Below, piece by piece: positions 3,301 through 34,700 of a stretch of DNA of 64,000 nt (positions are counted from its first letter, which is position 1; each line of letters opens with the position of its first letter). The translations under genes were made by a program, and so were the position numbers. The stretch is from contig JBHGNT010000014.1 in NCBI GenBank assembly GCA_043228905.1, positions 1,798,001-1,862,000 of the forward strand, in the 5' to 3' direction. This DNA comes from Azolla caroliniana (taxonomy: Eukaryota; Plantae; Polypodiophyta). The notes beneath the pieces were generated by a model. That model saw only the letters and a list, made by a program, of their open reading frames with translations. It was not told the origin of the DNA and ran no database searches.

Positions 3301-3678
3301 TGTTGAGAATCAAGCTCAACCTAGTCTAGTGTGTGAACACACCCTTGAGAGTGTGCACTCAAAGGTCAAAAGTCACCACTCTTATCTACACATTAACTAT
3401 GTGTCATAGAATCATATTCTATGACACATAACTAATGAGTTTTCACATTCCCCATGACCCATGAGCTTCAGTAGTTAATGAAGAGAGAGAGTGACTATAT
3501 AAAGCACTCTCCTCCTACTTTGTAATTAGCTCGATTAATCTCCTTTGTAATATACATCGTCTTGAGTATTCTATAGTTGTTCAAATCTATCTATCTTGTG
3601 TTTCTCTCTCATACACACACTCACAACACATATCTCTAGTCTATTCCGCTGCCCAAGAATCACCATCGATTCTTTTCA
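3301..3678 (+). mobile_element. 5' LTR of copia family A
   Basis: TG...CA termini, TATATAAA near 3496, followed directly by PBS; related copies at 19707-19857 (-), 29179-29676 and 31828-40021. Confidence 0.9.
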
Positions 3679-17558: not shown

Positions 17559-19706
17559 ACTCATTCCTTCTCTCAAAGTTCGACACCTCTCATAGTACTA
17601 ATCCTTCTCTGTCTTAGTACTATTCCCCAACAATAGTACTAATCCTTCTTTTAGTACTAATTCCTTCTCTGCCTTAATAGAGTTCCTGACAGCAAGCCCC
17701 GCGTGCCTGGAACGCGAAGATCACGAAGCAACTACATCGGATGGGCTTTGCGACGTCGAAATCAGACTCCTCACTGTTCATCCGAAAAGGTCGACTCAGA
17801 CCGGTTAGTATTTTACTTTATGTTGATGACTTGGTCATCACCGGCGCTGACCTAAGTGAAATCGACCGTGTGAAGCTCCAGCTTGCGGCATCATTCGACA
17901 TGAAGGATCTGGGGGACCTTCGTTACTTCCTCGGGATCGAAGTGATTCGCACCCCCGAAGGCATACTGATCAACTAACAACATTACGTGCTGAGTATGCT
18001 CTTCAAATTCGGGATGGCTGATTGTAAGTCCGTCTCGACTCCTCTGGATAGAACCGTCAAGCTTTGCCCCGATTCCGGAAAGGTATGCGACCCGACAAGG
18101 TTCCGACCTCAGTTACCCGATCCGACCTCAGTTACCCGGTCGGGGTGATCAGTCAGTTCATGGCGCGACTGACTGAGGGGCACCTTCAATGTGCGCAACG
18201 CGTACTTCGGTACGTCAGCGACACTAAGGACTGAGGGCTACTATATCGGACCTGTACAACCGCGCAGTTGGTCGGCTACACCGATGCTGATTGGGCCAAT
18301 AATGCCGCTGATCGCCGATTCACGTCCAGATACGCGTTCTCTATTGGGAGTGTGGCAATCGCGTGGAGTAGCAAGAAGCAGCCGATAGTTGCGTTGTCGA
18401 GCACTGAAGCCAAGTATAGAGGAGTGGCTGTCGCGACATGTGAAGCCATATGGTTGAAGCGGCTACTTAAGGATCTGCAGGTTGACGTATCCGATCCAAC
18501 GACAATCTACTGCGACAACCTCAACAACATCCAGCTAGCAAAGAACCCCGTCTTCCATGCCCAGACTAAGCACATTGAGGTGCACTACCATTTTGTCCGT
18601 GAGCTTGTCCTCTCCAGTGAAGTCGAACTTCAATATGTTATGATGGATCGGCAGGCTGTCGACATCTTCACCAAGCCTCTTGGTTTGGACAAGTTGCGGC
18701 AGTTCTCGGGTGCGCTTGGGGTGCGTCACCTCGACGTGCCGAACTTGAGGGGGAGAGATGTCCCGAATGACCACATGAGGGGGAGAGACGTCCCAAAGAG
18801 GAGAGAAGCTCCAAAAGACTGCGAAACTGAACCGCAAAGCCAAACTGGATCGGTTGAAGAAGTCGAGGGTGAATCCGTGGAAGATTCTGAAAGTGGACAT
18901 AAGGGGAGCAGTCGAAAGAAAGAGCCGAAGCCAACCAAGCGTGGGGGAGACGGAGCCATCAAGGGCGAGAAGACCGAAGACGAGTTGGAGACAACCAACT
19001 CGGACGAGAGCGAAAACTGATTGGAGGAAGCCGAGTCGGTTCGGATGTTCGAGTCGGATACGCCGAATCAACCAAGGGCCAAGCGGAAGAGAAGGCAACA
19101 GAAGAGGCACCAACACCGCAACAACAAGGAAGTTGAGAAGGGCCGTGTGAGCAGACAAGCTGACCGGAAGGGTCGAGGCGCACGGAATCGAACAGGTCGA
19201 GGAGTGCGAGCGAGGCGTGGAGCCAGGAGGAACGAGAGCGATGATCCGGAAGAACCCGAAGAGCCTCAAGTTGAGCTTGAGGGGGAGTGTTGAGAGACAA
19301 GCTCAACATCGGCCGGATCGGCTGAGCAAGTCGAGGACCGGATCGGTTGGGACCGATAGGTGAGGCCGAACTGGTGCGTAAACCGGTGCGCAACAAGAAG
19401 CTGTAGCGGTGCGTAAACCGCGAGGCCGTTGGAAAGATATTCCGCGTAGGAATATATTTTGGGAGTTAGTGTAGAGCTCATTTATGAGCATTGAAGTATG
19501 TGTCAATACTTCTATCAGTCCGTATGGACTTGTATAAAAGTGCTCACTGAGCACATCCTATTTACAGATTAAGTATTATTTTGAATTGAATTTCTGTGTG
19601 TCTTCTCTCTCTCTCTCTCGCGTACTGTGTATATTCGAGCTCTCCATTAAACCTGCGTATTTTCTGTGTTCGGTTTTCTACTTGCTTCCGCACGCTATTC
19701 TTCACA

Positions 19707-19857
19707 ATATGTAACTCATTAGTTATGTGTCATAGAATGTTCTATGACACATAGTTAATGTGTAGAGAGTAGTGGTGTGACTCTTGACCTTTGAGTAATC
19801 ATAGATTCTCAAAAGGTGTGTTCACACGTTGCACTATGTTGAGCTTGATTCTCAACA
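19707..19857 (-). mobile_element. Partial family-A LTR (U3 end), inverted
   Basis: Reverse complement of about 3301-3445, including the TATGTGTCATAGAA palindrome. Confidence 0.85.
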
Positions 19858-21731
19858 CTATGCAATTATTTTAAAAAAGTTTCAGAGTCCTCAGGGACTT
19901 CCAACCCTTTGCCTTTCGTCATTCTCTTTTCATACTTTGCCCGTTCTAGGTGCGTAATGAACGAGCTAGGTATACCATTGTTTGTATCTCCAACCTTTTT
20001 GGAGCGAGATGGTTTCCACGAACACAATGTGGTTTGGTTAGTGTTCACATTCACAATAAACATGTCAATTACAAGTTTAAGGATACCTAACCATTCTCTA
20101 AATACAATAAAAAAATCTTCAAGAGCTTTGTATGATGAAGTCACCGGGCATGCCTGCTCTACCTCTTCCCATGTAGGCAGTGATAGTTTCTTCATCATCA
20201 ATTCTTTAATCTTCATGTACACTTTATGGCTACAAACCAATAAATCAATGATTAATAATTAAAACAATATATGAAGCTCATTCATTATAAAAACCAATAT
20301 ACTTACTTTTGAAACTCAGTAACCATCTCATCTAAACTGAACTCCTTGGCAGCTACACGTGAAAGTACAAATATTAATAATTTGTCATCTTTGATTCCTT
20401 GTAAAGACCGCCAAGGGAGAACCTTCTTATATTTAGGGAGCTCCTTGATTATCAAATCACTTTTACGCGATTTGGCTTTAATCTCCACTTGTGGATCCGC
20501 TTTAGCTTTTTTCGATCGTTGACCTTTCACCTCTTTTCACTCCCACATACTAAATATCTTATCTTGCAAATCCCATACCTCCCCTATTCTAAAAGCTAGT
20601 TGAAATATCTTTCATATTTCCTTAGTCCTTCTGACTTCGTGGTTTCATCCACAACTATCCCCACCTCCAATAAACATTTGGTGACGCAGTCCAAGATGTA
20701 GCTTGGGACCATATTTTTTTAATGCATCAAGATACTCGTGGTGAAAGAATCGAATGCATTCTATACAATACATTTTTTGTATGTAGTCGTTGTCGTTAGT
20801 ATGGTCCCAGGCCAATAACTTTGCCTCTTCATGTGTTAGGCCTGCGTACACCTTACATTCAACATACTTGAAAAATGGAGTAAGAGGATACTTGTTGACG
20901 ACTTGATGACTAGCTTTTGCTGAATGAGATCCCCCTATGACATAATATGTATAATCATCAGCAGAACTGTACTTAAAAGCTAATGGCGAGGGACATTGTT
21001 CAGGGTCAAACATCACTAAAAAGGTACAACCGTTGCATGGGGATTGATCTTCGTTTTACTTTTGAGGTTTTGGATGTGGACAAAGTGGGGCTCTCAAATT
21101 TCTAGCGGACGTCTTTCGGTCACAAGATCCACTAGAGGTCTTTGAATCGAACAAATTGGCAAGTGAGAAGTTGCCCTTTACATACAAGCTTTGCCTTGAC
21201 AATGTTCTCCCTAATTTTATTCTGCTCCGAGGCTAGCACTCGTGATGACATTTGTCCACCTGGAGGAACCACCTCGAGTTGTTGCTCCCAGTCTTCTTCA
21301 TTTTCTACAAACTCAAGTACTTCAAGTTCGTCATACTTAGGTTTGGCTCTTTTCTTATATTTTTTCTGCTCTGGTTTAGACTTCGCCGATTTTTTTGGAG
21401 GTGTCCCTGCCTCGGCAACCATTAGCTCCCTTGTAATGTATGGACGAAGAGCTAGAATAAGATCTTTACGCAATACTTTTGGAGCACAACACTCCGTCAC
21501 CAGGTTTCCATCATCGACTAGAACACGTCTAGTACCTCTCGAGCTTTCTACTTGAAGGATAAGGTTAGGGGAATCCGAATACCCATACTCAATGTTTCGG
21601 AGGCTTCTGTTTGTGAACGTTTTGCCTAGCTCGCGTTTGCTTTTTCCTGGATATTTAGCCAAAACCAATAAAAGAAATCCATCTTCTTCTGCATAAACCA
21701 AGCTCCACTCAACGTCGATGTAGTTCTTCAT
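19858..21731 (-). pseudogene. Spliced gene of unknown function with a ParB/sulfiredoxin-like motif; frameshifted, 3' end cut by an LTR
   Basis: Colinear ORFs 21132-21731, 20645-21016, 20303-20530, 19866-20240; motif YYVIGGSHSAKA...VYAGL..EEAKLLA..HTN; GTAAG...TTTGTAG intron 20306-20230 joins EFQN-HKVYMKIK in frame. Confidence 0.55.
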
Positions 21732-22057
21732 CTTCGGTCCGTGAGGCTAGTCCTCAAGTAACTTTGTTGTATTCCCAACAAAAGACTTCGAGGTGCCGTC
21801 ACCACCGTACTCGAAGAGTGTCTTTCTAGACTTGTCTTGCATAAAACTATCATACCCCCTTTTTATTGGCGATGGTATCTTAATCTTGAATGATGGGAGT
21901 TTTTGTCGTGGCTCACTAAAGTGTACAGTAAATATTAAAAAACTGCTTAAAATAGAAGAAAATTGTATTTTTACCTTACAAAAAACATTAATTTAATGTG
22001 AAAAATAACAAACATAAACTACGTTGTGGTGGCCAGAACTCGTCTAAAAACAAGGGC

Positions 22058-22591
22058 TTTCAACAGGAATCCGTTGCAGTGCATCGGATTCCCGTTGAAA
22101 CCTATGCCTTTCAACCACAATCCGATGCATTGCATCGGATTGTGGTTGAAGAGGATTCTCTTCTACAAGAATCCGATGCATTGGGATTCTGGTTGAAAGG
22201 CATAGGTTTCAACGAGAATCCGATGCACTACATCGGATTCTCGTTGAAGAGTCCTCTCTTTCAACCAGAATCCGATGCGGTACATCGGATTCTGGTTGAA
22301 AGGCATTGGTTTCAACGAGAATCCGATGCACTGCATCATATTCTCGTTGAAGAGTCCTCTCTTTCAATGAGAATCCAATGCAGTGCATCCGATTCTCGTG
22401 GAAAGGCATAGGTTTCAACGAGAATTTGATGCACTGCATTGGATTCACGTTGAAGAGTATTCTCTTCTACCACAACATTGGATTGTGGCAGAAGAGAGGC
22501 TTATGCAACCACAATCTGATGCAAAGGATTTTGGTTGAAGAGTCCTATCTTCAACAACAATCCAATGCACTGCATTGAATTGTTGTTGAAG
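22058..22591. repeat. Array of about 11 palindromes (about 41 bp) with alternating 8-12 bp spacers
   Basis: Consensus TTCAAC-NNNAATCCGATGCA-n-TGCATCGGATTNNN-GTTGAA; spacers AGGCATAGG / GAGTCCTCTC; period about 51 bp (about 103 bp as a dimer). Confidence 0.95.
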
Positions 22592-23085
22592 AAAAAAACC
22601 TACATCCACAATACAATTCCTACCTAAGAGAATTTGTTCGATAATTCCTACCCAAAAAAGAAAGCATCTTAAAGGAATATTTATGGAATCTTATAAATTG
22701 GTTCAAAAAACTAACCTGGCAATTTTTCCCCCCTTGTTCATGATGGTTGACTCTGTAAGCTTGCGACTAAATTGCTAAAAATAGGATTGATGGATGACTT
22801 TGTGCTCCTGAACTCTTCGATTACTTTAACACGATAATGACAATAAGTCGAAGACTTGTCTTTATAAAGTTTCTTCAAAAAGAAATAATTTTATTGAATA
22901 ATTAGAAAATAAATATGAAAAAATTAAATAATTTCTTTACTTTTTTAAAAAATTACTTAAAAAATAAATAAATAATTTAAAAAAACAATGTGTATGGTTA
23001 AAATTCTTATTCCTTAACTTGATCACAATTTCTTAGGTAATGTAGTGATAAAGTTACAAATTCTAGATAATTTGCTAAAGTAACG

Positions 23086-25832
23086 ATGTCGTCCTCTTCG
23101 AGTAGATTATCTCTTTTTTTTGTGGAGCCTTTTACATTATCTAACAACTCCTTGTTCTATGTCGATGAGTACAATTATCTACGTGTTAAAAACAAGGAGC
23201 ATCAAAGTTTAAACTGTGATGTTACAAAAAGATCAAATTCAATGTTTTCAATTGACCCTTTGAACTCAAGTAGTAGTGAATTGAGCAAACAATGTGTTGA
23301 TAGTGGAAAGGTTGATACATCTATTGATGAGGCATGCGTGAAAGAACCAATCAATTTTAGAAAAATTCCTCGGCAAGTTAGTAGTAAACAACTTAACTTT
23401 TTGACTTCCGATCGTCAAATTGTGTTGGATACAAACAAGTCATGTTGTGGGAGTCTTTGCCTCTCTAAATTTGGCAAGGCTAACTTAAGGGGATTGCAAC
23501 AGAAGTATTTATCATTGAATGGTGATGAACAAGATGCTTTTCTGATTTCACATATTCAGTTACTTAAGGATTACACAGGGTGGGCTACGTCAATGCATGT
23601 TGAATATTATCTTGCTTTAAGCACTAAGTGTTGTCGAGTTGCATTCAAAATTGCTTATAGCATTGGGAACATGAGGCTCCAGAGAATTCAACTATGACTC
23701 GTAAAGGGTTCGTGGGTACCTTTGCCTTCTAATTATGATGAATCTAGAAGTAAGGGTCTAATTGGAGGCCATGTAGTTAGGTGGATGGAGAGGTATTCTC
23801 AAAACAATGTGATATTATGCCTACGACTGGAAGATTACATCTGTAAGATAACGTCACTCGCCGGGAGGTCTACCAAGCTTATAAGGATGACATGCTCATA
23901 GAATGTGTACCTTATATACAATATCGACATTTCAATTGATTATGGAGGTTAAGGTTTAACAATGTAGTTATACCGCGTAAGGTCTGAATGGGGGTTTGTT
24001 CAGTGTGTGCAAGTCTAAAGAGCATGGCGAAGAGTGGTATAACTGATGAAGAAATAAAGAGTTACAAGAATCTATTAAAACATCATCGCGATAGTCAGGC
24101 ATTGGAACGATTTAAAGCTATGCATCATCGATAAAAAGCTCTCCAATGGCCAGAAAGGGATATGTGTATGATTACAAATGGAATGGATCAAAAGAAGACT
24201 TGCTTGCCGCACTTTCGTAGGTTGCCAAAGGATATTGGAGACGAACGCCTTGTACAAATGCATTTAGTAGGTTGTTTAACATATTTTCAGACAATACGAC
24301 CTCAAGTATTCTTAACTTATCCTAATATCCACAACGACCCAAATCTTACAATCACAGTCTTGCAAAGAGTATTACAAGTCTTGGCAAGGTGTTCTCCCGC
24401 CAGTTTTGTATGTGCAACTCGACAACAAAGCAAGAGAAAACAAAAACTCAACTATGTTCGGTTATTTAAGCATGCTAATGGAGAGGGGAATATTTAAAAA
24501 GATTAAAGTCAATTTCTTACTAGTTGGTCATACCCATGATCATATTGATCAAATGTTTAGTAGATTCTCAAAGAAATTAGTGAGATGTGATGCTTTCACA
24601 CTTCTTATGCTATCAAAGATGATTAGTGAAGCTTATACTCCAAAGCCAGAAGTACATCATTTGTATGAAGTTTATGATTTTAAATGATTTTGCGTGGATA
24701 ATGATGGAACTGAAGGTAGGGTTCTTGCACAACTGAATAATATAAGTTTTAACCATGTCTTCCCCATAAAAAGAAGTTCAAGGATCCACAACATGACATT
24801 ATTGTATGCTTTAAACAATATTCATCTAGTTCACAATGGAGCCATAAGAGGGTTGTAGATTCTTATTGCGTTTTCCAGATGTGGGAATCGATTGTGCAAA
24901 ACAAATGCCATATGAAGACAAGGAAAATTTGGCTTCTTATAGTTCACTTGATGAACAAAAAAGATATTGGATGCGATGCCTTGAAACTAAACAGAAAAAA
25001 TATCAAGAGCACCAAGAAATACGCTGGTGATTAGAATATTGAATGGTGGGATGCCTTTTTTAACGACCATCATACGATTTTGGATAATTACATGGCTAGA
25101 TATTGACCCCTCCAATATCCGTTTCAATGGAACATTGGTGTCCCATCATTGGTGTCAAGGACTCATCACCACTCACTAGATAATGCTGAATTCAATAATC
25201 TAGTTCACCCACGACACAGAGATATTTACATGGGTCCAAGAATATCTCGTATTGTAGAGGCAAGATGGCAAGGTAGTTTGCATTAGCTTCAAGTTGGAAT
25301 GTTGGTCGCAACATTGGCTGACAATGATGAATTGGGCCACCCTTTTTGGATTGCTAAAATTCTAGAAATAATGAAGAATGAACAAGGCAATCAAGTTACG
25401 TCTATCGTGGTTCATTGGTATCACACCTCTTCCCCTGATGCATTTACTGGAAAGTACTCTTTAGAGATGGTGAAGGATGGCAGAAGCACAAGTAGAAAGA
25501 GATGAAGAAAGAATCTACCAAGCATGTCTACTCTCACATTGGATAACGTTGACATACTGGTGTATGACTTCTCGTTGACCAAGACATGCCATCTTAGGTA
25601 GACTACAATTAGGATATTAAAAGAGAAGATCCCAAAGGTGTGTCCGAAGATGACAGTAAGAAGAATAAGTAGTATGTCTCATAATCATGGTGAGGTTGGA
25701 TTGCAATTGGATGAAGACAATGAATTGGTTGCAAGTGATGAAGAGGATGAGAACTCACAAAGCTCTTCTACCTCATTGGATGATTCTGGGAATGATGGCT
25801 TATCTTTGGGAAGTAAGTGTTCTGAGACATGA
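23086..25832 (+). pseudogene. Sola1/DUF7869-like DDD transposase, degenerate, with a C-terminal SH3-fold-like domain
   Basis: (D/N)GMDQKK, DPNLTITVL, YVQLDNKARENKN, LLVGHTHDHIDQMFSRFS; upstream CC..C and CSVC motifs; many stops. Confidence 0.75.
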
Positions 25833-28765
25833 ACTATGATATTGTATCTTACTTCAAAATGTCAATTTACGAATATCTATAAATGATGGCTAAGTCCATT
25901 TGTAAATATTGCGCATTCTTTTGTATGTTTGGCGTGTCTATTATTTAGGCATTTTTTGAAAGCCTACAAGTTGTTGCCATTGATAAATATCAATATAATT
26001 TTGGCTATTTTTTAAATACCCTTTACCCATGCGGCACCCATTTTTGTAAAATGACGTATTTTATTCCTTTTTTAGATGTACACTTCTTATAATGTGACAT
26101 ATTACCTGTTTCAAATGAGCTGGTGTTAAGATCAAGTGTCTGCAGTGGGATGGCAGAAAGGAATACTTTTCTAGCTAGTTCAATTATTATTTGCCACAGA
26201 TGGGGATTCGACGCGAATTCACCTACAGATATACGCCGAAGCAGAATGGGGTAGCCGAAAGGAAGAATTGGTCAATCATGGAAGCAACACAGGCAATGCT
26301 AGAAGAGAAGAGCATGCCCAAATTTTATTGGGCCAAAGCCATTAGGACGGCGGTGTACATCCAGAATCAGATCGGAGAAAAGGTGTTAGCACATGAGCTG
26401 TATTTCGGGCACAAGCCGAATTTGAAGCACTTGAGGGTATTTGGTAGCATTGCATATGTGCATGTGCCGAATGAGAATCGGAAGAAGCTGGATGCCAAGT
26501 CGAAAAGTGCATATTGGTTGGCTACTCACATGAGCAGAAAGGCTACAAGTGCTACAATCCCCGGACGAAGCAAGGGCGAGTGAGCCGCGACGTCATCTTC
26601 GACGAATCAAAGTCTTGGTATTGTCTCCTGTTTCCAACACCCGACGACCGCATACCAATTGCTGAGGATGAGACTAGTGAGGCCGAGATGTTTTGGGAAG
26701 AAGAAGAAGAAATTATCATTCTAGAAGAGAGTCCAATTTCATTTTGGCTGAGTGGCCCGAATGAAGAGCTGAGTTGGAATGACCAACCGAGTGAAGAGTT
26801 GGCGAGTAGTGAAGATTCGGTCGTGCACTCCCCGTGCAAGGAATCGAGGAGATGGTATACACACAAAGAGAAGGAGAAGATGAAGATGCCAGGGCACGGA
26901 AACCTTGAAGGCATGTCGGATTGGAGTGAATCTGACGAAGCCATGAGCACATACAGACCTCCGGAGCCGAGGTCGGAAATGGCCAAGAAGGCCTTGAAGA
27001 CGGCCAACGAAAGGTTGCACCATTAGAAGAACCTCGTAATCAAGTACAGGTACAATGAGTAAATGGTGCATCACTATGCGTACATGTTGAAAGTGGTGGA
27101 AGTCCCTGAGCTGGAGAGCTATGTGGAGGCATCACAGGATGCCAAATGGCAATCGGCCATGGAGGAAGAAATGCGGGCACTAGATGTCAACAACACATGG
27201 GACTTGGTTGACCCTCAATGTCATTGCAAACCGATCGGATGTAAATGGGTGTACAAAGTGAAGTACAACACTGACGGTTGGATCAACCGGTATAAGGCCC
27301 GATTGATGGTCAAGGGATATGCGCAAACCCACAACATCGACTGCAACGAAACCTTTGCACGAAACCTTTGCACCGGTAACGACGATGACAACAGTTCGTG
27401 TGGTGTTAGCAATAACAGTGGCAAGGGGGTGGCATCTCCATCAGGCGGACATGAAGAACGCATTTCTTCAAGGTGATCTTGAAGAACATGTATTTATGGT
27501 CCAACCCCCCGGATTTCAGTCGGAGCTGAACAAGTCGACAATTTACTAGTTAAGGAAGTCACTTTATGGCCTCAAGCAAGTCTCACGTGCCTGGAACCCG
27601 AAAATCAAGCACATTTATGTAAGATGGGGTTTGTGGTCTCGAAGTCTGATTGCTCCTTGTTCATTCGGAAAGGTCTAAAAGGCCCGATTTGCATATTGTT
27701 TTACGTGGATGACCTAGTTGTCATTGGTGCTGACCTTGCCGAAATTAGCTGTCCCAATTGTCGGCTGCCTTTGAGATGAACGACCTAGGGAACCTTCACT
27801 ACTTCCTTGGGATCGAGTTGATCCACACCCTCGACGACATATTGATCACTTAACGACATTATGTTTTGAATATTTTGTACAAGTTCGGGATTACGGATTG
27901 CCGATCTGTCACCAGTCCTCTTGATAGAAACTTGAAGCTTTGCCTTGACTTAGGTGCGGCCTATGATGAGAAACGGTTTCAACAAATTGTGAGAAGCCTG
28001 ATATACTTAACAATCACTTGACCCGATCTTAACTATCCGGTTGGCATGATAAGTCAATTCATGCAGAGACCAATAGTCGAGCACTTTCACTGTGCGCATC
28101 GAATACTGAGATATGTGAGCAACAGGAAGGATTGAGGATTGATGTACCGACATGGCATAGCCGAACAATTGGTCAACTATATTGATGCCAATTGGGCCGG
28201 AGATGCCATGGATCACCGATCAACATTAGGCTTTATGTTCTCCCTTGGGAGTGCGGCGATAGCATGGAGCAGCAAGAAGCAACCGATAGTGGCCCTGTCG
28301 AATACCAAGGCAAAGTACAGAGGGGCCACCATCGCAATGTGTGAGGCTATATGGCTCAAGTAATTGTTGCAGGCTCTACAAGTTGAAGTTCCCACTTTGA
28401 TTCCGATCTACTATGACAACATCGGTACTAAGTAGCATGCAGCTGGCCAAGAATCCTGTATTCCATGCTCACACGAAGCACATAGAAGTGCATTGGGGTG
28501 AAAGAATGTGAATGGAAACACTATTATAGCTTACACGTAGAGCTAATTTTTAGTGGGAAAATCTTAAAGATACATATAATTTATTGTGGGGATGGAAATA
28601 TTACCATTTATGGTCCACATTTTAGCTGGTCTTTATTTGAGATCACATTCTAATAATCTCTAAAATGACCAAAATATGCTAATTTGTAAAGATAAAAATG
28701 CAGAAGCTAAACAAACCTTAACCGGCTCAGGCGGATAACAATAGAATCACAGAGAATGGAATACA

Positions 28766-29178: not shown

Positions 29179-29581
29179 TATTGAGAATCAAGCTCAACAT
29201 AGTGTAACGTGTGAACCACCCTTTCAGCATCCATGACCACTCAAAGGTCAAGAGTCATACCACTCTCTACCCATTAAACTATGTGTCATAAAATCATATT
29301 CTATGACACATAACTAATGGGTTCCACATTCCCCATGACCATAAGACTTCACATTCCTCAAGGCTCTAGTGAGAGAGTGGACGTTGTAGTGAGTAAATGA
29401 AGAGAGAGGGTGACCCTATATAAAGCACCCTCCTCCTACTTCATATTAAGTTGGTTATGACTCTTTGTAATACTACATTTTTGTATCTCTATTCTACTTG
29501 TGAAATATACACCTTCTTCTTCTTGAGTATTTTATTTCTCTTGCTTATCTATCTCCTGTTCTCTTCTCTCCTCTATTTTTA

Positions 29582-31755: not shown

Positions 31756-34700
31756 TTTTGAAGAATCGTGACCAACCGAAGGGACATCAACTGAAAGGAA
31801 CCGGCCCGAGTTGAGCTTGAGGGGGCGTGTTGAGAATCAAGCTCAACATAGTGTAACGTGTGAACCACTCTTTCAGCATCCATGAGCACTCAAAGGTCAA
31901 GAGTCATACTATTATGGGCATGACCATATAATATCCCGTGGTGAGAATTTACCGTAGTATTCTATACACGTGGATAAGTGTGAGGGTTAAACGAGAGTGT
32001 AAAGAAGGGGAGGATTACTTTTAATCCTTGGGATTGAGACAACCCATTAGGCCAACTGTGAACATGGCCGGGGGGCCTTGGGTATCGCTATAAATAAGAG
32101 GCCTAGCTACCCTTATTTCATTATCTTGTTGACTACGTCGAGACTTTGTCTTGTGGTGGGTCAACTCTTGTAGTGAGCGCGCCAGCACCAGGTACGACTC
32201 GACGCCACAACGGTGGTATGGGACGCCGATCGAGGCTCGAGTCCGTCTCGATCCCTTCGCTCGGGGGTGGTCGGGTGGATCGGCACCCTTCTTTCTCTCT
32301 CTCTCCTCTCTATCTAGATCTATCTATTCATCTATATTCTATCCTTATCTAATGCTTACATTAGTCTATGTCTCTTACAGTTGGTATCAAAACTCATTTT
32401 CTAATGTTTCTTTTGTTGTGTTTTGTGTTTTTGATTGATGGCGATCGATCGATGTGCGGTTGGCCTTGATCCAGACAACGATCAACAAAAGAACTTCGGT
32501 AATCTTTCGTGTTTTTTTTTTTTGTCTATTTTTTCTCTAATCATGTGTATGGATAATATGTAGATTTTTTTCATTAATTCAATGATGTTGTAGTGGTAAT
32601 TCATTGGTTGTATAAAACGTTTACATATGTGTATGAGGTCAATACCTCATTTGACGTATATTGAATATGTGATGAGTGTCGTATGCGCACGAGGTTAATA
32701 CCTCAATTGCGTATTATGTTCACAAACATATGTTACGTTTGCGTATGAGGTCAATACCTCGATTCATTGTAAATGATATGCGTTTGGTCTCGTATGCGTA
32801 GGAGGTCAATACCTCAATTACGTATTACGATTAACCCTTATTTTTGGATGTCTCGTGTACGTAGAGGTATATGCCTCGATTACGTATCTCGATTACGTCA
32901 TTTTTGGCTATTAAATATAACGATTTGTTTAATATAGGCATATGTGGTCATGTGTATACATAGTTGATCGTATATATGTGATAATATACATATGTGTATA
33001 TAAGTTATTACGTGATTTTAAATCAAATGTTTTCCTTTTCGGGGAAAGGATCTTGGTGGCCGTCCTCACATTTTTGTGAGAATAGCATTGTCACCATCCT
33101 TTTTTTCAACAATTTTTTATTGTTGAAATCCCCGTTGGTGACTTCGATATTTCGTTATGTAAAGAAACGCCTATAGCCATAATGATGTTGAGTACGTAGG
33201 GCTTGACTCACTTCATGTGAGGTCGCTCCTATGACACACATATCCAACATCCCTCCCTCATTACATGGATACGATGCCACCATGAGATCACTCTTACGAG
33301 AGGCATTCGTAATGAAGTGACCATGTGATGGGCCACGTGGGCCTACTACGAAAAGAGGGCTCATTTGGCTTGACCATTAGGTTGCACTTTGGCGTATGCC
33401 ATCGTAATTACGAGACTTGAGGTTAGGTAACGTACCAACATAGTTGTAGTAAATGAGGGCGAAATAAGGACTCTTGACATATATGTTTCTTTTAAAAAAA
33501 CATATATGGGCAAATGCCTCGCATATCTTATATATGCATGAAACATTAAACATTCAAGAAGAGCAACCTATTTGGTTGGCTCAAGTGTTTAATGCATTTG
33601 TTCTCGAGGTCTCGAGTTCAAATATGACCAAGACCATACAACATCGTTGATACATATGACTATAACAGATGTTTAGACTCGAGGTCTAAGTGCACTTCGG
33701 GGTCCTCGTAATAGGACTTAAAGAGCCGAAACCACATATGTGGGCACCAAAACATAGTTTATTGTTAACATTTTTTTAGTGTATAAACTATTCATGACGT
33801 GAACATACATGGTTGAGCCTCGGGGAGCCGCCATGAAAAAATCGATATAGAGATCAGGGAAAGACATTAAATCGTCACCCCCATGGTTTTTAAAATACCT
33901 TTGTGTTACCATAGTAACCTGATCTTGAATCTCATCTCATACGTCTTGAGGGGTATTGACGTGAGATCATGATATCGATTAATGTTTGCCCATGATATGT
34001 TTACATCACGACATGATGTTATGTTTATTTGTTTGACCTTATCCTATTTCTTTTCCAGAAATAATCATTTAATGGCTCAAAATAACGACCCGATGTCATC
34101 CGCTCAAGTGGAAGGAACTCAAGGGAATCCTCTTGGACAAATGTCCATTGAGATGTATTTTTCGCAAATAATCCAATACCTTAGTTTCACTGCTCAACAG
34201 ATGGCCGAACTTTGGCAATCTCAAAGTGCTCTCGAGGCACGTGTCATTAGTTTACAACGTGAGACTAATAGACCTGATGAGCGACAAGGTGAACCATCGT
34301 TTGTCGTTAAGCCATTTATGGGAGAAAAAAAGGAAAGAACCGAAGAAGCAATTTGCACGTGGCTGGGCCGATGGGAGTCTCATTTTGCGCTCTATCCCAC
34401 GCCAGATAGTACGAAGACTGCATATGTCGGCCGAGAACTAGGGGGTAAGGTTGCCGCCAGGTGGGGTGGGCTCCGTACTTTGGGGAAATTGCCCGATACC
34501 TGGACAGATTTTGTCACAGTTTTCAAGGGCCAATTTTTGCAACCTCCCTCATGAACCGAGGCAGCACAAGCTTTAATGAACCTCTCAAGCAGGAAGTTTT
34601 CCTCGCTAGAAGAATATGTCCACCATGCTAGAACCCAAATCCAAAAATCGGGTCTAGAAGGGGACAATTGGTTAATAACTTGTTTTGTTAATGGCATCCC

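What the first reader, a model, noticed from the sequence alone, without database searches (positions are those of the whole stretch)
19858..26112. Candidate two-gene transposon system: Sola-like transposase, spliced ParB-like gene and palindrome array
Seen: a DDD transposase (+) and an intron-containing gene (-) diverge from a central region holding about 11 palindromes. The second gene contains YYVIGGSHSAKA followed by VYAGL..EEA.LLA..HTN. Known: the ParB/sulfiredoxin fold carries a Y.I/V.xG.(H/R)R..A motif, and bacterial ParB binds arrays of palindromic parS sites. Sola elements are generally described as encoding only a transposase. Inference: a eukaryotic transposon may carry a ParB-fold accessory protein together with its own binding array, for transpososome assembly or anti-silencing. 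The 3' end of the gene is cut by an LTR, so any C-terminal enzyme domain cannot be seen.
Basis: partly seen in the sequence, partly recalled or inferred. Interest (0 to 1): 0.85.

Follow-up and report, generated by a model that had tools for sequence, protein, structure and literature searches.

The report
Plant transposon carrying ParB-methylase and palindromes
This is a dead, truncated copy of a high-copy plant jumping gene whose intact copies carry, back-to-back with the transposase, a gene for a bacterial-style DNA-binding (ParB-fold) protein fused to a predicted DNA methylase, plus a row of evenly spaced palindromes that this protein likely binds so that the element would chemically mark its own DNA, an idea already in print for algal transposons.

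Summary
Window 19858-26127 is a decayed, left-truncated copy of a 7-9 kb cut-and-paste element: TIRs, 4-bp TSD in 34 of 38 full copies, DUF7869 DDD transposase, over 1000 candidate copies. The missing 3' end is answered by intact copies: the spliced gene continues into a beta-class DNA amino-methyltransferase (DIPY...FSGTG, PF01555) under strong purifying selection (dN/dS 0.04-0.07). Its middle folds like ParB/Noc (Foldseek E 2e-5) with an HTH-like part but lacks the CTPase arginine (0 of 54). The palindromes lie in this gene's predicted first intron, at 51/41-bp spacing; their core YCGATRC-nnn-GYATCGR persists across families whose TIRs differ. The three parts travel together (15-16 of 20 copies), so chance nesting is refuted. 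Likely mechanism: the ParB-methylase binds its own array beside the shared promoter region and methylates element DNA. Binding, activity, expression and purpose are untested, and array CGs in inserted copies still mutate like methylated DNA. Known kind: Ectocarpus Sola1-1_Ec32 has this gene pair; Bostrychia Plavaka has ParB plus inverted-repeat arrays. The land-plant combination was not found in nine paper searches. This scan found the same family before on other DNA of this genome.

The parts
19858..26127 (.). Remnant of a Sola-like TIR DNA transposon; the left ~1.8 kb (methyltransferase exons and left TIR) is missing
   Evidence: 72-79% identical to intact copy L031; missing part not found in the window or in 100 kb to its left
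26091..26127 (-). Right terminal inverted repeat, about 37 bp, terminus AACAC; the next 4 bases (26128-26131) are the expected TSD copy
23086..25832 (+). DUF7869 DDD transposase pseudogene; catalytic motifs start at 24174 (Asp read as Asn), 24415 and 24535
   Evidence: intact copies have 897-923-codon open frames
25287..25632 (+). C-terminal BAH-like barrel of the transposase (lead only; limits approximate)
   Evidence: from intact copy L031: atlas score 0.86, Foldseek DNMT1 BAH1 E 0.0097, VIA Z 6.0, rmsd 3.6, 84 aligned
22858..22869 (-). TATA-like box about 115 nt upstream of the accessory gene's ATG; the two ATGs (22741 and 23086) are 345 nt apart
   Evidence: sequence; similar boxes in other families; function inferred
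22716..22741 (-). Predicted exon 1 of the ParB-methyltransferase gene (ATG, 8 codons plus 2 nt, GT donor)
   Evidence: same short phase-2 exon in L031, L033, L039, L042, L125 and, read by eye, in three further families
22059..22592 (.). Palindrome array in predicted intron 1: core AATCCGATGCA-N-TGCATCGGATT, 8 full and 3 centre-deleted units, 51-52 bp period
   Evidence: 637 exact cores in the genome, 0 for the reversed control
20307..21915 (-). Exon 2: N-terminal domain of unknown family, basic/acidic linker, ParB/Srx-fold domain (motif 20947-20912) and HTH-like helical domain; broken by frameshifts and 5 stops
20091..20229 (-). Exon 3 (the GT donor seen in intact copies is altered here)
19858..20015 (-). 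Start of exon 4 (the AG acceptor seen in intact copies is altered here), cut about 33 codons before the DIPY catalytic motif
19712..19857 (-). Short LTR-like repeat at the break; no matching TSD on its left, so it likely marks a recombinant junction that removed the methyltransferase exons
   Evidence: 86% to 29181-29326, 83% to 3301-3441; the recombination is inferred

Best explanation
The window holds a dead copy of a Sola-like DNA transposon whose intact copies encode, opposite the transposase, a ParB-fold protein fused to a predicted beta-class DNA amino-methyltransferase that likely binds the phased palindromes in its own first intron and would methylate nearby element DNA (probably N6-adenine), likely to keep the shared promoter region active against host 5mC silencing. 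Shown here: the element, its ends, co-occurrence of the three parts, the domains, conserved catalytic motifs, purifying selection, and the conserved position, spacing and core of the array. Inferred: binding of the palindrome by an HTH dimer (about 0.75); methyl transfer to DNA (about 0.7); 6mA rather than 4mC (about 0.65); and anti-silencing or self-licensing as the purpose (about 0.5).
For: Intact copies continue into DIPY...FSGTG exons: PF01555 E 2.2e-8, above cut-off. The Ginkgo relative matches M.RsrI, M.MboIIA and CcrM. ADIPYG is kept in 33 of 39 aligned rows and DLFSGT in 30 of 39 (38 full elements plus the window copy). dN/dS is 0.04-0.07 in methyltransferase exons against 0.09-0.20 in the transposase, and the ParB core is 92% identical with saturated silent sites (L031 vs L039). 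The model (pLDDT 87.5) matches ParB/Noc at E 1.8e-5; VIA gives PadC Z 9.7 (rmsd 3.0, 99 aligned) and, weakly, DNA-binding domains of KorB Z 4.3, ParB-parS Z 3.8 and SopB Z 3.5 on residues 145-301. A generic palindrome lies within 3 kb upstream in 110 of 154 loci with a ParB match (about 3 of these look spurious) and 0 times in 100 kb of flank. 160 of 197 spacings are 41, 51 or 71 bp, near whole helical turns (copies are related, not independent). The core survives across families about 72% identical in the ParB part although CG mutates about 10 times faster than CHH. TIRs and the transposase N-terminus (46-53% identity) diverge between families, while the predicted recognition helix RKY[DE][SP]WFQLAFR and the palindrome core stay. 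The same proposal is in print for algal elements.
Against: No binding, activity or expression data. In inserted copies the array CG is not protected: C>T/G>A 5-10% against 3-4% at other CGs (units not independent), so any protection is at most transient or limited to active copies. GxxRxxA, the ParB CTPase signature, has no Arg in 0 of 54 homologue rows, so clamp-type spreading along the element is doubtful. The HTH-domain match is weak (Z 3.5-4.3). DIPY and DFPY are variants of DPPY, and one Riccia relative's predicted protein lacks that region. Array size ranges from 0 to 21 units; 10 of 60 loci had no unit. Recognition-helix changes do not track palindrome changes cleanly (EP occurs with both ATGC and ATAC).
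Confidence: 0.5

Rival explanations
1. Operator-type autoregulation: the protein binds the array next to the two back-to-back promoters and represses or tunes both genes, as KorB does on plasmids; methylation is a secondary switch that limits copy-number growth.
For: The array starts about 60-140 nt into intron 1 in all families inspected, next to the promoter region. KorB is among the top fold matches (Z 8.7, rmsd 12.8, 166 aligned). Copies are mutated like host-methylated DNA, array included.
Against: A pure repressor would not need a methyltransferase under dN/dS 0.04-0.07. Young, near-identical copies of family A carry the largest arrays (13-21 units), which fits an advantage of more sites for spread.
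Confidence: 0.2
2. The mark controls the transposition reaction itself: it identifies element DNA, times excision to replication, or protects existing copies from self-insertion (Dam control of bacterial IS elements is the recalled analogy). The array nucleates a complex that brings the ends together.
For: Evenly phased arrays suit a nucleoprotein scaffold. The transposase has a BAH-like reader domain that could couple it to chromatin state. The gene pair is also suggested in a liverwort by consecutive locus tags.
Against: The array is 3-4 kb from either TIR and sits at the promoter, not at the ends. Internally deleted copies with both TIRs and perfect or unchecked ends exist without it (L058 has a TSD and no unit; L072 is 2.2 kb).
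Confidence: 0.14
3. The palindromes are transposase binding sites or self-amplifying repeats with no link to the ParB protein, and the methyltransferase acts elsewhere.
For: Both genes are linked, so co-inheritance cannot assign the partner. Inverted repeats can be kept symmetric by repair and amplify by slippage; unit number is very variable.
Against: The TIRs hold no copy of the half-site and change between families while the core does not. Flanks of the core differ between families A and B while the CG-bearing core stays.
Confidence: 0.1
4. Chance nesting of unrelated elements.
For: The window is a nest of LTR elements; 2 of 15 array-anchored places had neither gene within 1.5 kb.
Against: One TIR pair with a 4-bp TSD encloses all parts in 34 of 38 full copies. 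All three parts occur in 15 of 20 ParB-anchored and 16 of 20 transposase-anchored loci, and the layout repeats in other families.
Confidence: 0.01

Closest known systems
Sola1-1_Ec32 of Ectocarpus (PMC12477816; passages and one supplementary table row seen)
   Same: Sola-type transposase; accessory gene on the opposite strand with ParB-like and N4C/N6A methyltransferase domains (1104 aa there, about 970 predicted here); 4-bp TSD; termini begin AAC; self-modification proposed.
   Different: Brown alga, 21.5 kb, 282-bp TIR, termini AACCG. Here: land plant, 7-9 kb, about 37-bp TIR, termini AACAC. No palindrome array or BAH-like domain in the passages seen. Sequence relationship not tested.
Plavaka PAG3 of Bostrychia (bioRxiv 10.1101/2025.02.11.637652; passages seen; supplements not seen)
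   Same: Transposon accessory gene with a ParB-like domain next to tandem arrays of inverted repeats; proposed to bind and modify its own element.
   Different: EnSpm/CACTA-type element; ParB is fused to a 2OG oxygenase, and the adenine methylase is a separate gene (PAG2).
Bacterial ParB/Noc/KorB with parS-type sites (fold matches; motif from PMC13495010 passages)
   Same: ParB/Srx fold followed by an HTH-like helical domain; palindromic sites in clusters.
   Different: CTPase arginine absent; fused to a methyltransferase; no ParA gene seen in the element; spliced eukaryotic gene.
Beta-class amino-methyltransferases (M.RsrI, M.MboIIA, CcrM) and eukaryotic 4mC writers MpDN4MT1 and N4CMT (passages)
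   Same: Catalytic motif before the SAM-binding FxGxG motif; PF01555.
   Different: DIPY/DFPY rather than SPPY, which points to 6mA. MpDN4MT1 has no extra domains and N4CMT has a chromodomain; both are host genes, not transposon cargo.
VANDAL/VANC anti-silencing system (PMC5735166; abstract seen)
   Same: Transposon-encoded accessory protein with family-specific target repeats in non-coding parts of the element.
   Different: Mutator-like element, unrelated protein that causes loss of methylation; targets differ widely between families, whereas the core here is conserved.

Membership tests
Sola superfamily | DDD transposase of the Sola type | tested here: met
   DUF7869 E 1e-49 to 1e-52; three Asp motifs conserved (IDGMDQ 32, VQLDNT 35, GHTHDHIDQ 36 of 39 rows). 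That DUF7869 corresponds to Sola is recalled, not shown by a call.
Sola superfamily | TIRs and 4-bp TSD | tested here: met
   34 of 38 two-ended copies (of 60 loci) have a perfect 4-bp TSD
Sola1 subgroup | AWWT target preference (PMC3845634 passage) | tested here: not met
   0 of 34 TSDs are AWWT; the Ectocarpus Sola1 row does not list AWWT either
Sola1 subgroup | Match to the published Sola1 profile | tested here: inconclusive
   Only positions 82-107 of the profile were read, by eye: the D-N-x4-N-K-N-S pattern is shared, but the profile has cagq where this protein has TARE; the profile was not run
ParB/Srx fold | ParB N-terminal fold | tested here: met
   Foldseek ParB/Noc E 1.8e-5; VIA PadC Z 9.7, SerK 8.2, Srx 7.8. 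Pfam and NCBIfam gave no ParB hit by sequence.
ParB CTPase clamp | GxxRxxA arginine | tested here: not met
   0 of 54 ungapped rows of A2 (60 rows) have Arg at that place; placement of the motif is by eye
ParB CTPase clamp | HTH domain that reads a palindromic site | tested here: inconclusive
   Weak fold matches to KorB, ParB and SopB DNA-binding domains (Z 3.5-4.3); binding not testable here
Beta-class DNA amino-methyltransferase | Catalytic (D/S/N)PP(Y/F)-type motif ahead of FxGxG; PF01555 | tested here: met
   DIPY in exon 4 and FSGTG across exons 5-6 of intact copies; absent from the window copy by truncation
Beta-class DNA amino-methyltransferase | Methyl transfer to DNA (6mA or 4mC) | not testable with these tools
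   needs biochemistry or long-read kinetics
ParB-methyltransferase Sola elements (Sola1-1_Ec32 kind) | ParB-methyltransferase gene on the strand opposite a Sola transposase, inside one TIR pair | tested here: met
   against the description

The most novel reading that the evidence does not exclude
A streptophyte-wide lineage of transposons carries a complete self-addressed epigenetic circuit: a ParB-derived reader that has lost the CTP switch, a phased operator array in its own first intron, a bacterial-type 6mA writer, and a BAH-tipped transposase that reads host chromatin. It would deposit a sequence-targeted adenine mark in a vascular plant genome and so license bursts of over a thousand copies.
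Probability: 0.3. Interest if true: 0.85.

Novelty: new variant of a known kind. Interest (0 to 1): 0.55.

Why it matters
Transposon anti-silencing is documented in few plant cases (VANC; PMC12973397 passage). The ParB-methylase idea has been proposed for algal elements but, in the papers seen, not tested. This family supplies what a test needs: near-identical young copies with open frames, a defined 23-bp candidate site, and natural site variants across families. If active, it would be a transposon-borne, site-directed DNA amino-methyltransferase in a land plant and a compact natural read-write module. The window copy itself is dead and adds no function.

Tried and rejected
Expression: no RNA holder was listed; the two same-label contig sets laid on L031 gave four partial contigs and no clean splice joint, so the introns rest on conserved GT-AG sites and frames only. 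Dimer prediction for the ParB part gave no verdict (score 0.19, mark 0.32). Sequence searches did not detect ParB: Pfam only DUF6551 at E 0.015-0.036, PDB profile search nothing relevant, NCBIfam none, atlas unnamed or DUF3723 clusters. The missing left part was sought in the window and 100 kb to its left and not found. A 4-mer bias scan outside the array in five elements showed no candidate methylation target (mean z within +/-2). Protection of array CGs from deamination was tested and not seen. Covariation of helix residues with palindrome variants was inconclusive (the tree has long branches and open forks). The N-terminal domain of exon 2 stays unassigned. Bao et al. 2009 is not held and Iyer et al. 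2011 was not looked up; either may already describe plant Sola elements with this gene, and bioRxiv supplements were not seen. My first guess of a moss host was dropped: the closest named relatives are from ferns.
Full report
1. Observation. The window lies in a 523-Mb eukaryotic genome. The closest named relatives of both proteins are from ferns: Ceratopteris at 69% and 71%, so the host is probably a fern (inference; earlier scan notes said the same). A DUF7869 transposase remnant runs 23086-25832 on +. A spliced gene runs the other way with the quoted motifs at 20947-20795. Eight 23-bp palindromes match at up to 3 mismatches with 0 expected by chance, and three more have lost their centre. 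An LTR-like repeat cuts the gene at 19857/19858. Both genes are dead here: 11 stops in four frame segments and Asn for the first catalytic Asp in the transposase; 5 stops, frameshifts and two altered splice sites in the second gene.

2. The element. Searches of the genome gave 1062 and 1192 candidate places for the two proteins (150 scored each, several families included) and 637 exact palindrome cores against 0 for the control. Of 60 fetched 10-kb loci, 38 had both TIRs more than 6.5 kb apart and 34 of these a perfect 4-bp TSD; none was AWWT. Full copies are 6.7-9.0 kb. Among 20 loci anchored on the ParB exon, 19 had methyltransferase exons, 16 a divergent transposase, 18 the array and 15 all three parts. 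Among 20 anchored on the transposase and chosen because no partner was in the top-150 list, 17 had the divergent gene and 16 all three. Among 15 array-anchored places, 10 had both genes within 1.5 kb, 3 had one and 2 neither. The 20 pair-selected loci are not a test. The 10-kb limit and nested insertions may explain part of the misses. The window copy is an older subfamily, 81% and 75% identical to the young families A and B over the transposase. Its left part is not in the window or 100 kb to the left.

3. The second gene. Intact copies show six predicted exons. Exon 1 is an ATG plus 8 codons ending in phase 2, and the array lies in intron 1; three more distant families show the same arrangement by eye. 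Exon 2 holds the ParB-like part. Its model (pLDDT 87.5, 60 sequences) matches ParB and Noc (E 1.8e-5 to 6e-4), with PadC Z 9.7 and weak matches of residues 145-301 to KorB, ParB and SopB DNA-binding domains. The CTPase signature GxxRxxA reads GSHSAEA; 0 of 54 rows have the Arg. Exons 4-6, lost in the window 33 codons before the catalytic motif, encode a beta-class amino-methyltransferase: DIPY, then FSGTG, PF01555 above cut-off. Between families A and B these exons are 85-94% identical with dN/dS 0.04-0.07, tighter than the transposase (0.09-0.20; one pair of copies). Relatives of the ParB part occur in Ginkgo, Riccia and Chara; 9 of 30 long relatives scanned carry PF01555. In Riccia a DUF7869 gene and such a gene have consecutive locus tags on contigs of the same listed length, which suggests the same pairing; that DNA was not examined. 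Asp in the catalytic motif points to 6mA, since SPPY marks 4mC enzymes and DPPY 6mA enzymes.

4. The array. 50 of 60 loci have at least one unit; young family A has 13-21, family B mostly 1-5; 160 of 197 spacings under 130 bp are 41, 51 or 71 bp, near 4, 5 and 7 helical turns (10.4 bp per turn is general knowledge; copies are related). A second family in this genome and the 80 metagenome contigs kept (of 138 confirmed) show half-sites AACTCGATGC, AATTCGATGC, AACTCGATAC, AATTCGATAC and AAGTCGATGC, always symmetric around three free bases and mostly with 40-52 bp spacing. The common form YCGATRC-nnn-GYATCGR was found upstream in 110 of 154 loci with a ParB match (many of the others are short contigs; about 3 hits look spurious) and 0 times in 100 kb of flank. 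TIRs share little beyond AACAC between families and hold no half-site; the transposase N-terminus falls to 46-53% identity while the predicted recognition helix hardly changes. CG and CHG sites in copies mutate about ten times faster than CHH (3-4% against 0.35%), and the array CG is no better protected (5-10%). This shows host 5mC on inserted copies, argues against lasting protection, and makes the long-term survival of a CG-bearing core more telling.

5. Mechanism. Most likely the protein binds the phased palindromes as dimers, about 130 nt from exon 1 and within 500 nt of the transposase start, and the tethered methyltransferase marks nearby element DNA, keeping the back-to-back promoters usable (confidence 0.5). 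Rivals are operator-type repression (0.2), control of the transposition reaction (0.14), and an array unrelated to ParB (0.1). Chance nesting is refuted. The transposase ends in a BAH-like barrel (scores below firm thresholds).

6. What is known. Ectocarpus Sola1-1_Ec32 carries a ParB-methyltransferase gene opposite its transposase, with self-modification proposed (PMC12477816, passages and a supplement row). Bostrychia Plavaka elements have ParB genes beside inverted-repeat arrays (bioRxiv 2025.02.11.637652, passages). PMC4738411 notes ParB-HTH-fused Dam enzymes in chlorophytes and chytrids, a different methylase group (passages). Nine searches listed no paper on the land-plant form with an intronic phased array; Bao 2009 and Iyer 2011 were not seen. 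This scan has reported the same family from other windows of this genome (219 notes fit the look-up, 8 shown) and related elements in other genomes; these notes are leads, not support.

7. Verdict. Real feature, dead copy, new variant of a known but untested kind. Interest 0.55.

Noticed in passing
window 25287-25632; L031:8797-9288: The transposase ends in a BAH-like barrel with a conserved aromatic-rich PFW/WY core; Foldseek and VIA rank BAH domains first but below firm thresholds.
   Followed up: partly
L031:4160-4528 (-); window about 21450-21750 (-): A beta-rich N-terminal domain of the accessory protein has no Pfam match; atlas neighbours are unnamed phage and bacterial clusters (0.90-0.92).
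   Followed up: partly
P0225 and P0060 (Riccia R1sor_010795, R1sor_010796): Consecutive locus tags for a DUF7869 transposase and a ParB-methylase-like protein in a liverwort; the predicted P0060 lacks the catalytic-motif region.
   Followed up: partly
P0025, P0032 (Ginkgo): Ginkgo gene models with the ParB part and PF01555; motif reads DIPH in P0032. Whether transposon-borne or domesticated is unknown.
   Followed up: no
P0102 (533 aa): A relative of the HTH-like part fused to a SAM (sterile alpha motif) domain.
   Followed up: no
L101-L120: A second young family in the same genome (ParB part about 73% identical) with its own TIR and palindrome AACTCGATACG-N-CGTATCGAGTT at 51-bp spacing.
   Followed up: yes
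G000:C14:17409140-17433229: Four transposase hits at an exact 7924-bp period, a tandem run of the element or an assembly artefact.
   Followed up: no
L072, L081, L086, L079: Internally deleted copies: L072 keeps both TIRs 2.2 kb apart with no accessory gene or array; others lose the ParB exon.
   Followed up: partly
window 19712-19857, 29181-29326, 3301-3441, 31827-31909: A short LTR-like repeat of about 146 bp with an internal inverted repeat recurs several times in the window.
   Followed up: partly
window 26128-28000 and 18000-19708: The element sits between copia-type retroelement remnants; the whole window is a nest of LTR elements.
   Followed up: no
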